From Escherichia coli (GTDB lineage: Bacteria > Pseudomonadota > Gammaproteobacteria > Enterobacterales > Enterobacteriaceae), in assembly GCF_030013205.1 (NCBI RefSeq), contig NZ_CP122648.1: a DNA stretch of 64,000 nucleotides; one strand, given 5' to 3'. Shown here piece by piece: positions 23,075-23,524 of the stretch. Position numbers and translations under genes: made by a program. The notes beneath the pieces were generated by a model. It ran no database searches and was not told the origin of the DNA. It saw only the letters and a list, made by a program, of their open reading frames with translations. Position 1 is the first letter of the stretch. The number at the start of each line of letters is the position of its first letter.

Positions 23075-23524
23075 TCCCGCTGCGAAGTGCCGCCCGCTCA
23101 CGCCAGCTAACCACTTCGCCGGGCGTCATCATGAAGATTTCGGCGGGCGACCAGTTAAAAATGGCGGCGATATCTGCCACCAGATCTTCGATGTGCTCAA
23201 AGCACACCAGGGTGATTACGCTGCCGTCTCCTGCACGCTCTTCGCGCCAGAGTCTGGCTCGCTCATAAAATTTACAGCCACAGCGCACAACTGAATAAAA
23301 TCGCGTGACGACATTTTTTTAATCATCACTTCATCCAGTCGTGGCGAGGTCACGCGAGGCAACAGCGTGAACATGGTATCCGCTTTCAGATTCAGCACAT
23401 CAGACAGCGACAGACCACGCAGGGATCCAGCCTGTTCAATAGCCCCGGTGATCTCCACATACGTGATTTTTTCGCCACCACGCTCAATTGGTCGGGTCAG
23501 TTTTACGCCACGTTCGACAGCCAT
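23052..23524 (-). CDS. tail assembly chaperone E with -1 frameshift extension E'
   Basis: E frame 23216..23524 resembles P2 gpE; overlapping -1 frame continues to 23052; slippery A-AAT-TTT at about 23267..23274. Confidence 0.65.

What the first reader, a model, noticed from the sequence alone, without database searches (positions are those of the whole stretch)
23216..23290. Programmed -1 frameshift site in the tail chaperone E/E' pair
The E frame ends at 23216 while an overlapping -1 frame continues to 23052. A canonical slippery heptamer A-AAT-TTT lies at about 23267..23274 on the coding strand, inside the overlap. This is the conserved E/E' (lambda G/GT-like) arrangement, so the tail module is still intact at this level.
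Basis: partly seen in the sequence, partly recalled or inferred. Interest (0 to 1): 0.25.

Follow-up and report, generated by a model that had tools for sequence, protein, structure and literature searches.

The report
Tail-chaperone frameshift site, shifted one codon
This is the ordinary programmed -1 frameshift that P2-like phages use to make two versions of a tail-assembly chaperone; the only twist is that this lineage has lost the family's usual slippery sequence and keeps an overlapping one a codon upstream, and here it sits in a gutted prophage.

Summary
On the minus strand, gene E (23590..23216, 124 aa) is overlapped by an open -1 frame (23318..23052). The only in-phase X_XXY_YYZ heptamer in E, A_AAT_TTT, lies at 23273..23267.

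- The pair lies between the tube and tape-measure genes of a Xuanwuvirus (P88-like, Peduoviridae) prophage.
- The -1 frame carries the P2 GpE domain.
- The slip site falls in the same alignment column as the site cited for P2.
- Substitutions between this allele and P88 switch from synonymous in the 0 frame to synonymous in the -1 frame exactly at the heptamer.

One refinement: the family's usual heptamer T_TTT_TTG is destroyed here (TTG became ATG, base 23266). Only the overlapping upstream A_AAT_TTT remains. P88 has both, and Klebsiella Reipivirus phages show the same upstream move (C_CCT_TTC). This allele occurs in 598 of 5,426 complete E. coli genomes and in plaque-forming phage PhiSM.

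No downstream RNA stimulator was found. Public annotation splits E' off as a separate 51-aa gene.

The host prophage (E. coli ETEC4079, serS-dmsA) has lost its head, lysis and baseplate genes, so the signal is probably a relic in this genome. It is an ordinary member of a known kind, of low interest.

The parts
23216..23590 (-). Gene E, the tail assembly chaperone made by 0-frame translation (124 aa). It has a strong Shine-Dalgarno sequence, AAGGAG, 7 nt (six intervening bases, ACAACT) upstream of the ATG.
   Evidence: ORF list. phrog_103 at 1e-36. Pfam Phage_TAC_7 at 20.6 bits, below its 25-bit cut-off. Aligns with P2 gpE. Upstream sequence.
23267..23273 (-). Slippery heptamer A_AAT_TTT (0-frame codons GTA AAT TTT). 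This is the proposed site of the -1 tandem slip, with tRNA-Asn moving AAU to AAA and tRNA-Phe moving UUU to UUU.
   Evidence: Only canonical in-phase heptamer in E. Invariant in window-type and P88-type alleles. Bases 23256..23275 are invariant in 44 haplotypes. The selected frame switches here.
23264..23270 (-). Degenerate copy of the family's P2-type heptamer: T_TTT_ATG instead of T_TTT_TTG. The T-to-A change is at 23266.
   Evidence: T_TTT_TTG sits at the homologous codons in P2, P2_4E6b, P88, PhiR44_2, Chuche, phiT5282H, 3LV2017, Menos, ST147-VIM1phi7.1, YenM_56.17, phiCTX, SEN8, ENT90 and BpuM-ZY1. The window and Shae_phiSM have ATG.
23052..23267 (-). E' coding segment read in the -1 frame after the slip (71 aa, YERARLW...NADNEDS, stop TGA 23054..23052). 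The conceptual E+E' product is join(23590..23267, 23267..23052), 179 aa, with junction ...CAVAVNF|YERARLW.
   Evidence: Translation. PF06528 Phage_P2_GpE at 2.9e-12. phrog_1756 at 7.8e-38, covering fusion residues 104-177.
23052..23318 (-). Full extent of the open -1 frame. The part from 23318 to 23216 overlaps E.
23052..23207 (-). E' as RefSeq and GenBank call it: a separate 51-aa 'GpE family phage tail protein' starting at GTG 23207, with no slippage join.
   Evidence: WP_000333503.1. Similar calls in P88, PhiR44_2, Chuche and P88_4B11. The nearest AGGAG is 20-24 nt upstream of the GTG, too far for a Shine-Dalgarno sequence.
23315..23321 (-). T_AAA_AAA, part of a conserved A7 run (ATT AAA AAA ATG). 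It was considered as an alternative slip site and rejected.
   Evidence: Sequence. The 0 frame stays the selected frame between this run and the heptamer. P88 has a -1 frame stop between the run and the heptamer.
20258..23065 (-). Gene T, the tape measure. Its ATG (23065) overlaps the end of E' by 14 nt.
   Evidence: PF10145 at 1.6e-56. RefSeq coordinates.
23646..24158 (-). Gene FII, the tail tube, immediately upstream of E.
   Evidence: PF04985 at 7.5e-47.

Best explanation
The locus is the tail-assembly-chaperone pair E / E+E' of a P88-like (Xuanwuvirus, Peduoviridae) phage.

Proposed mechanism:
- Most ribosomes translate E to its stop at 23216 and make the 124-aa chaperone.
- A minority slip back one base on A_AAU_UUU (23273..23267). 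The P-site tRNA-Asn re-pairs from AAU to AAA and the A-site tRNA-Phe from UUU to UUU. Equivalently, tRNA-Phe alone slips on U_UUU while the A site is empty.
- Those ribosomes then read UAU GAG CGA... in the -1 frame to 23052, making a 179-aa fusion whose C-terminal 71 residues carry the P2 GpE domain.
- By analogy with P2 and lambda G/GT, both products act on the tape measure T during tail assembly, and their ratio is fixed by slip efficiency.

In this lineage the family's usual T_TTT_TTG has been lost (TTG to ATG). The overlapping heptamer one codon upstream is the only canonical site left.

What is shown: the anatomy, the homology, the homologous position, conservation of the heptamer, and the switch of the selected frame at the heptamer.

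What is inferred: that slippage happens, at this heptamer, and at a useful rate.

In this particular genome the prophage is a deletion remnant, so the intact signal is most likely a recent relic and not part of a working tail pathway.
For: 1. Synteny FI-FII-E/E'-T-U and domain hits.
2. tblastn with the conceptual fusion finds 403 phage records. The listed full-length matches are in two pieces, meaning two reading frames.
3. The junction column is 111 here and in Kp4846-1, and 112 in P2, P88, phiCTX and eight others.
4. Window versus P88 substitutions:
   - Upstream of the heptamer: 11 synonymous / 4 non-synonymous in the 0 frame, with 14 of 18 differences at third positions.
   - In the 48 nt between heptamer and E stop: 1/8 in the 0 frame against 6/3 in the -1 frame.
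   - After the E stop: 0/7 in the 0 frame against 4/3 in the -1 frame.
5. Within the ATG allele, 72 of 76 IMG/VR loci keep both frames intact: 67 pass the automatic check, and I count 5 more that failed it only through a start offset. Among the 67, polymorphism after the E stop is 10 syn / 9 non in the -1 frame against 2/20 in the 0 frame.
6. The ATG allele is common and occurs in working phages. It is in 598 of 5,426 complete E. coli genomes, in P88_4B11 and in Shae_phiSM. PhiSM forms plaques on E. coli K-12 (PMC6456863).
7. In E. coli reporter assays, A_AAU_UUU belongs to the efficient H_HH.U_UU.Y class. It gives 11.4% with the IS3 pseudoknot, against 0.77% for U_UUU_UUG (PMC4066793 text and Table S3).
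8. Reipivirus phages independently show the same upstream-only state, C_CCT_TTC TTG. phiT5282H and P88 show the intermediate state with both heptamers.
9. Phage Menos annotates the homologous pair as a joined frameshift CDS. P2's site is cited as TTTTTTG, giving E of 91 aa and E+E' of 142 aa (PMC3091744).
Against: - There is no experimental evidence for slippage in any Xuanwuvirus.
- Without a stimulator, A_AAU_UUU gave only 0.07% in reporters, close to the background of about 0.055%.
- I found no significant or conserved downstream structure (z from -0.46 to +0.91) and no upstream Shine-Dalgarno-like element.
- A canonical heptamer in the overlap arises by chance in about 9% of codon shuffles.
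- Counts in the 48-nt overlap are small.
- Polymorphism within the ATG clade may include segments imported by recombination from the P88-type allele (mosaics L092-L096).
- In this genome the prophage cannot build a tail or a virion.
Confidence: 0.85

Rival explanations
1. E' is a separate gene started independently at GTG 23207 (or GTG 23288), as RefSeq and GenBank annotate it, and no frameshift is needed.
For: RefSeq and several phage records call a stand-alone 51-aa 'GpE family' CDS. An AGGAG lies upstream of GTG 23207.
Against: - The AGGAG is 20-24 nt from the GTG, and nothing Shine-Dalgarno-like precedes GTG 23288.
- Synonymous-biased change in the -1 frame (6 syn / 3 non) already applies in the 48 nt upstream of the E stop, before GTG 23207.
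- phrog_1756 aligns from fusion residue 104, 25 residues before that GTG.
- Distant genera conserve W..ER.GDG in that stretch.
- In P2 the fusion is reported as the expressed form (PMC3091744).
Confidence: 0.05
2. The T-to-A change disabled the frameshift signal. This allele makes little or no E+E', and the heptamer A_AAT_TTT is a chance leftover.
For: The family-wide T_TTT_TTG is gone. A_AAU_UUU alone is near background in reporters. Chance gives a heptamer 9% of the time. The copy in this window lies in a dead prophage.
Against: - The allele is in 598 genomes and in full-length phage genomes of 36-38 kb.
- It is in plaque-forming PhiSM.
- E' stays intact in 72 of 76 loci and keeps a -1 frame third-position bias.
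- U_UUU_UUG is no better than A_AAU_UUU in E. coli reporters.
- A_AAT_TTT also pre-exists in the P88 allele.
Confidence: 0.07
3. The slip occurs elsewhere in the overlap, at the conserved A7 run (T_AAA_AAA, 23321..23315), or arises by transcriptional slippage.
For: The A7 run is invariant in both alleles. In the window allele the -1 frame opens exactly there. AAA AAA is slippery in E. coli (title and abstract of PMC1851650, listed).
Against: - Between the A run and the heptamer, the 0 frame is the selected one: 11 syn / 4 non, against 1/16 in the -1 frame.
- P88 has a -1 frame stop (TGA) between the two.
- T_AAA_AAA is out of canonical phase.
- A T4 or A7 run is short for transcriptional slippage (general knowledge).
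Confidence: 0.02

Closest known systems
Phage P2 E / E+E' (-1 frameshift in the FETUD tail operon; Christie et al. 2002, as cited in PMC3091744)
   Same: Same gene order (FII, E/E', T). E and E' are homologous (tblastn 2e-15; PF06528). The -1 direction is the same. The slip site is in the same alignment column give or take one codon. No downstream hairpin.
   Different: P2 slips on T_TTT_TTG (GGT TTT TTG). Here that heptamer reads T_TTT_ATG, and the only canonical site is A_AAT_TTT, 3 nt upstream. E is longer (124 against 91 aa), the fusion is 179 against 142 aa, and the E/E' overlap after the site is 48 nt against 18 nt. Identity is about 38%.
Phage P88 and the P88-type allele of Xuanwuvirus
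   Same: Same genus and about 87% nucleotide identity over the region. A_AAT_TTT is identical and in the same phase.
   Different: P88 reads A_AAT_TTT_TTG, so it carries both the upstream heptamer and the P2-type one. The window allele keeps only the upstream one. The P88-type 61-mer is in 820 complete E. coli genomes and the window-type in 598.
Klebsiella Reipivirus phages (Kp4846-1, ST16-OXA48phi5.4)
   Same: The same kind of relocation. The P2-type heptamer is broken (T_TTC_TTG), and a canonical heptamer one codon upstream, C_CCT_TTC, sits at junction column 111.
   Different: A different heptamer (C_CCU_UUC, 23% with the IS3 pseudoknot in reporters), a different genus, and about 54% protein identity.
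Phage lambda G / GT tail assembly chaperones
   Same: [quoted passage not shown]
   Different: Not tested here as homology. By my recollection of the P2 paper's abstract, there is no sequence similarity. Lambda's heptamer is G_GGA_AAG (my recollection). Lambda has a siphovirus tail, whereas this is a contractile tail.
Mannheimia phage vB_MhM_2256AP1 E/E'
   Same: Homologous E/E' pair, with a slippery sequence noted in the record.
   Different: It uses G_GGA_AAG at a different column (129). This shows that slip-site turnover occurs within the family.

Membership tests
P2-type E / E+E' frameshifted tail chaperone pair (Peduoviridae) | Located between the tail tube gene (FII) and the tape measure gene (T), on the same strand | tested here: met
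   FII at 23646..24158, E at 23216..23590, T at 20258..23065, all on the minus strand.
P2-type E / E+E' frameshifted tail chaperone pair (Peduoviridae) | The upstream ORF is a gpE homologue | tested here: met
   phrog_103 at 1e-36. Aligns with P2, phiCTX and others. The Pfam Phage_TAC_7 hit is below its cut-off (20.6 against 25 bits).
P2-type E / E+E' frameshifted tail chaperone pair (Peduoviridae) | The overlapping -1 frame encodes the GpE (E') domain | tested here: met
   PF06528 at 2.9e-12 and 46.3 bits, above its 23-bit cut-off. phrog_1756 at 7.8e-38.
P2-type E / E+E' frameshifted tail chaperone pair (Peduoviridae) | E' lacks its own translation start signal | tested here: met
   No Shine-Dalgarno-like sequence within 15 nt of GTG 23207 or GTG 23288. 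This comes from reading the sequence, not from a quantitative model.
P2-type E / E+E' frameshifted tail chaperone pair (Peduoviridae) | The family's conserved slippery heptamer T_TTT_TTG lies in the overlap | tested here: not met
   The window reads T_TTT_ATG at 23270..23264. Fourteen relatives have T_TTT_TTG.
P2-type E / E+E' frameshifted tail chaperone pair (Peduoviridae) | Some canonical X_XXY_YYZ heptamer, in 0-frame phase, at the homologous position | tested here: met
   A_AAT_TTT at 23273..23267. Junction column 111 against 112.
P2-type E / E+E' frameshifted tail chaperone pair (Peduoviridae) | Purifying selection moves from the 0 frame to the -1 frame at the slip site | tested here: met
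   11/4 syn/non in the 0 frame upstream. In the overlap, 1/8 in the 0 frame against 6/3 in the -1 frame. The counts are small.
P2-type E / E+E' frameshifted tail chaperone pair (Peduoviridae) | The fusion protein is actually produced and is needed for tail assembly | not testable with these tools
   Needs mass spectrometry, a reporter assay or genetics. The only indirect evidence is that plaque-forming PhiSM carries the same allele.
Stimulated -1 PRF signals (dnaX / IS911 / IS3 type) | A downstream hairpin or pseudoknot 5-9 nt after the heptamer, or an upstream Shine-Dalgarno-like element | tested here: not met
   Folding z-scores range from -0.46 to +0.91 in six phages. There is no conserved structure near the site in a 4-sequence alignment. 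No GGAG is seen upstream.

The most novel reading that the evidence does not exclude
Slip-site turnover within a conserved recoding locus. In Peduoviridae the frameshift site can migrate one codon upstream through an intermediate that carries two overlapping heptamers (N_NNT_TTT_TTG). This has happened at least twice:
- Xuanwuvirus ATG allele: A_AAU_UUU only.
- Reipivirus: C_CCU_UUC only.

E. coli reporter data rank A_AAU_UUU and C_CCU_UUY far above U_UUU_UUG when a stimulator is present. The upstream heptamer may therefore already be the main working site in phages that carry both, such as P88 and phiT5282H. The textbook TTTTTTG would then not be the only functional signal in this family.
Probability: 0.5. 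Interest if true: 0.3.

Novelty: new member of a known kind. Interest (0 to 1): 0.2.

Why it matters
- **Annotation.** RefSeq and most phage records split E' off as a free 51-aa gene with an arbitrary GTG start. About 1,400 complete E. coli genomes carry one of the two Xuanwuvirus alleles, so the E+E' fusion is systematically missing from their proteomes.
- **Recoding biology.** The locus is a small natural experiment. The same essential frameshift is kept while the slippery heptamer itself is replaced. In P88 the two candidate sites give different junction peptides (NFF|ER against NFL|ER), so one mass-spectrometry run could show which heptamer is used.
- **This genome.** It matters little. 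The prophage is a remnant and the signal is most likely a relic.

Tried and rejected
1. **Downstream RNA stimulator.** The 101-nt and 60-nt folds of the window allele give z = -0.44 and -0.46. Five relatives give -0.38 to +0.91. RNAalifold on four sequences finds nothing near the site. An imperfect hairpin 8-14 nt downstream in the window allele is not kept in P88. Rejected.

2. **A7 run as the slip site.** Rejected on the selection pattern and on a -1 frame stop in P88.

3. **Apparent in-frame E-E' fusions in IMG/VR.** Loci L017, L018 and L019 matched as single segments. Their translations show scattered indels typical of draft-assembly errors, not a hard-wired fusion.

4. **Christie et al. 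2002 (PMC135442).** The paper is not held. The P2 facts are taken from PMC3091744. The roughly 10% efficiency figure is my recollection of the abstract only.

5. **Literature on P88_4B11.** No hits.

6. **First polymorphism count.** The count was confounded by length-variant haplotypes. It was redone on 67 same-length intact loci.

7. **Survey of all 403 phage records for heptamer type.** Not done because of the fetch cap. 19 representative phages other than the window allele were inspected.

Full report
**Observation**

On the minus strand, E starts at ATG 23590, preceded by AAGGAG, and stops at TAA 23218..23216 (124 aa). The frame one base upstream (-1) is closed by TAA at 23321..23319 and then stays open to TGA 23054..23052, so the two frames overlap for 103 nt. 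The 0-frame codons GTA AAT TTT place A_AAT_TTT at 23273..23267. It is the only canonical X_XXY_YYZ heptamer in phase anywhere in E. Shuffling the codon order of E gives at least one such heptamer in the last 35 codons 9% of the time. The heptamer alone is therefore suggestive, not decisive.

**What the element is**

- Window 2900..43700 is 100% identical to the chromosome of E. coli ETEC4079, NZ_CP122643.1.
- The tail genes belong to a Xuanwuvirus (P88-like, Peduoviridae) prophage between serS and dmsA.
- The 801 nt around the site are 98.5-98.6% identical to phages P88_4B11, 503458, 520873 and Citrobacter phage Shae_phiSM, and about 87% identical to P88.
- Pfam assigns sheath (FI), tube (FII, 7.5e-47), tape measure (T, 1.6e-56), U and D.
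- D is divergent from FI, which is normal for this genus.

**Homology of the pair**

- E matches phrog_103 (1e-36). Its Pfam Phage_TAC_7 hit is below the cut-off (20.6 against 25 bits).
- The -1 frame matches PF06528 Phage_P2_GpE (2.9e-12) and phrog_1756 (7.8e-38).
- tblastn with the conceptual 179-aa fusion finds 403 phage records across Peduoviridae. The listed full-length matches come as two pieces, one per reading frame.
- I built conceptual fusions for 13 phages and aligned them. The junction falls at column 112 in P2, P88, phiCTX, Menos, SEN8, ENT90 and five others. It falls at column 111 here and in Klebsiella phage Kp4846-1.

**The heptamer is not the family's usual one**

- The homologous codons read NNT TTT TTG in 14 relatives, which gives T_TTT_TTG. 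This is the P2 site as cited in PMC3091744.
- P88 reads GTA AAT TTT TTG and so carries both A_AAT_TTT and T_TTT_TTG. phiT5282H likewise carries C_CCT_TTT_TTG.
- The window, Shae_phiSM and P88_4B11 read GTA AAT TTT ATG. The P2-type heptamer is broken by a T-to-A change at 23266, and only the upstream heptamer remains.
- Reipivirus phages show the same end state with C_CCT_TTC TTG.
- Mannheimia phage uses G_GGA_AAG at a different position.
- Slip-site turnover therefore occurs in this family, apparently through an intermediate with two overlapping heptamers.

**Evidence that translation changes frame at this point**

Window versus P88:

| Segment | 0 frame (syn/non) | -1 frame (syn/non) |
|---|---|---|
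| 88 nt before the heptamer | 11/4 | 1/16 |
| 48 nt from heptamer to E stop | 1/8 | 6/3 |
| After the E stop | 0/7 | 4/3 |

In the first segment, 14 of 18 differences fall at 0-frame third positions.

Within the ATG allele:
- 72 of 76 IMG/VR loci keep E and the fusion frame intact. 67 pass the automatic check, and I count 5 more that failed it only through a start offset.
- Bases 23256..23275 never vary among 44 haplotypes.
- Variable sites flip from 0-frame third positions to -1 frame third positions across the heptamer.
- After the E stop, polymorphic codons are 10 syn / 9 non in the -1 frame against 2/20 in the 0 frame.

**Is the ATG allele functional?**

- A 61-mer centred on the site is found in 598 of 5,426 complete E. 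coli genomes. The P88-type 61-mer is found in 820.
- The allele occurs in full-length 36-38 kb viral contigs.
- PhiSM of C. rodentium is described as a fully functional, plaque-forming temperate phage related to P88 (PMC6456863). The GenBank record Shae_phiSM carries the window-type site. That Shae_phiSM is PhiSM rests on its name and host.

**Mechanism and efficiency**

- Sharma et al. 2014 place H_HH.U_UU.Y among the most efficient -1 motifs in E. coli. They note that the shiftiness of UUY offsets an RRU P-site codon.
- Their Table S3 gives percent -1 frameshifting with no stimulator / IS911 stimulators / IS3 pseudoknot:

| Motif | None | IS911 | IS3 pseudoknot |
|---|---|---|---|
| AAAUUUU | 0.070 | 0.355 | 11.4 |
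| UUUUUUG | 0.118 | 0.247 | 0.77 |
| CCCUUUC | 0.193 | 1.39 | 23.2 |

- The remaining heptamer is therefore at least as competent as the one that was lost. Both are weak without a stimulator.
- I found no stimulator. Folding z-scores run from -0.46 to +0.91 in six phages, and there is no conserved structure near the site. The literature says the same for P2.
- A tandem slip on A_AAU_UUU and a P-site slip of tRNA-Phe on U_UUU give the same product, ...AVNF|YERARLW..., so sequence analysis cannot tell them apart.

**Rivals**

- Independent initiation of E' at GTG 23207, the RefSeq model, is unlikely. There is no usable Shine-Dalgarno sequence. Both -1 frame conservation and the phrog_1756 match begin about 25 codons upstream of that GTG.
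- The conserved A7 run is rejected because the 0 frame stays the selected frame after it, and because P88 has a -1 frame stop in between.
- A dead signal cannot be excluded for this copy, but it is hard to square with the allele's spread and its intactness.

**Context in this genome**

Against Shae_phiSM, the prophage keeps:
- int, cox and the early genes;
- stubs of the scaffold and capsid genes;
- part of gene I;
- a different tail fibre with tfa;
- an acetyltransferase;
- U-T-E'/E-FII-FI-D and ogr.

The head, terminase, portal, lysis, baseplate V/W/J and replication genes are gone. 'Tail module intact' is therefore true only for this block. The E+E' sequence here is identical to that of complete phages, so the decay is recent and the frameshift cassette is an intact relic.

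**Verdict**

The finding is correct and ordinary: a new member of the known E/E' (G/GT-like) recoding class. There are two modest additions. The slippery heptamer has moved one codon upstream of the family consensus. Public annotation misses the fusion product.

Noticed in passing
window ~10296..28285: The Xuanwuvirus prophage between serS and dmsA is a deletion remnant. Compared with Shae_phiSM it lacks the portal, terminase, most of the capsid and scaffold, lysis, baseplate V/W/J and replication genes. Capsid and scaffold stubs lie at about 14758..15113.
   Followed up: partly
window 19023..19586 (-): A hexapeptide-repeat acetyltransferase (PF00132, 1.1e-12; RefSeq 'serine acetyltransferase') sits between U and the tail fibre assembly gene, where Shae_phiSM has a DNA invertase. 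It is probably a cargo gene. It has no PADLOC hit.
   Followed up: partly
window 26786..27469 (+): A 227-aa ORF between D and ogr with a predicted N-terminal hydrophobic segment. It has no Pfam and no PADLOC match, so it is cargo of unknown function.
   Followed up: partly
window 28070..28210 (+): A Hok/Gef family toxin gene (PF01848, 3.1e-07) at the prophage edge beside ogr (27619..27879).
   Followed up: no
window 25500..26609 (+): RefSeq calls gene D as a 267-aa protein (25809..26609) plus a pseudogene stub. However, a full 369-aa ORF starting MTDTTMQLL aligns end to end with the D gene of Shae_phiSM.
   Followed up: partly
L098 (OR565851.1) 2294..4745; L002 (KP063541.1) 3484..3639: Product labels in public records are misplaced. 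In Shae_phiSM the D gene is labelled 'ogr' and the sheath gene 'late control gene D protein'. In P88 the E' ORF is labelled 'tail fiber protein'.
   Followed up: no
window 23312..23321 (-): A conserved A7 run (ATT AAA AAA ATG) lies inside E, just where the -1 frame opens in the window allele. It could give a low level of a second, longer -1 product in this allele only. The selection pattern offers no support for this.
   Followed up: yes
L017, L018, L019 (IMG/VR contigs): Three viral contigs matched the fusion protein as a single in-frame segment. Inspection shows scattered indels, which are likely assembly errors and not natural hard-wired fusions. L081 has a stop in E' and L084 has an altered E' C-terminus.
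   Followed up: yes
NZ_CP122643.1 (ETEC4079), second place not located: The 801-nt query matches two places in this chromosome (H31). The strain therefore carries a second Xuanwuvirus-type E/E' copy that could complement or recombine with the remnant.
   Followed up: no
PMC6456863 versus L098: The PhiSM paper reports long non-contractile tails (siphovirus morphology). The genome deposited as Shae_phiSM nevertheless encodes P2-type sheath and tube genes.
   Followed up: no
L092..L096 (IMG/VR): Mosaic E genes have a P88-like N-terminus (MKVTKNIDTEN...) joined to the window-type C-terminus and slip site. This shows recombination between the two alleles within E.
   Followed up: partly
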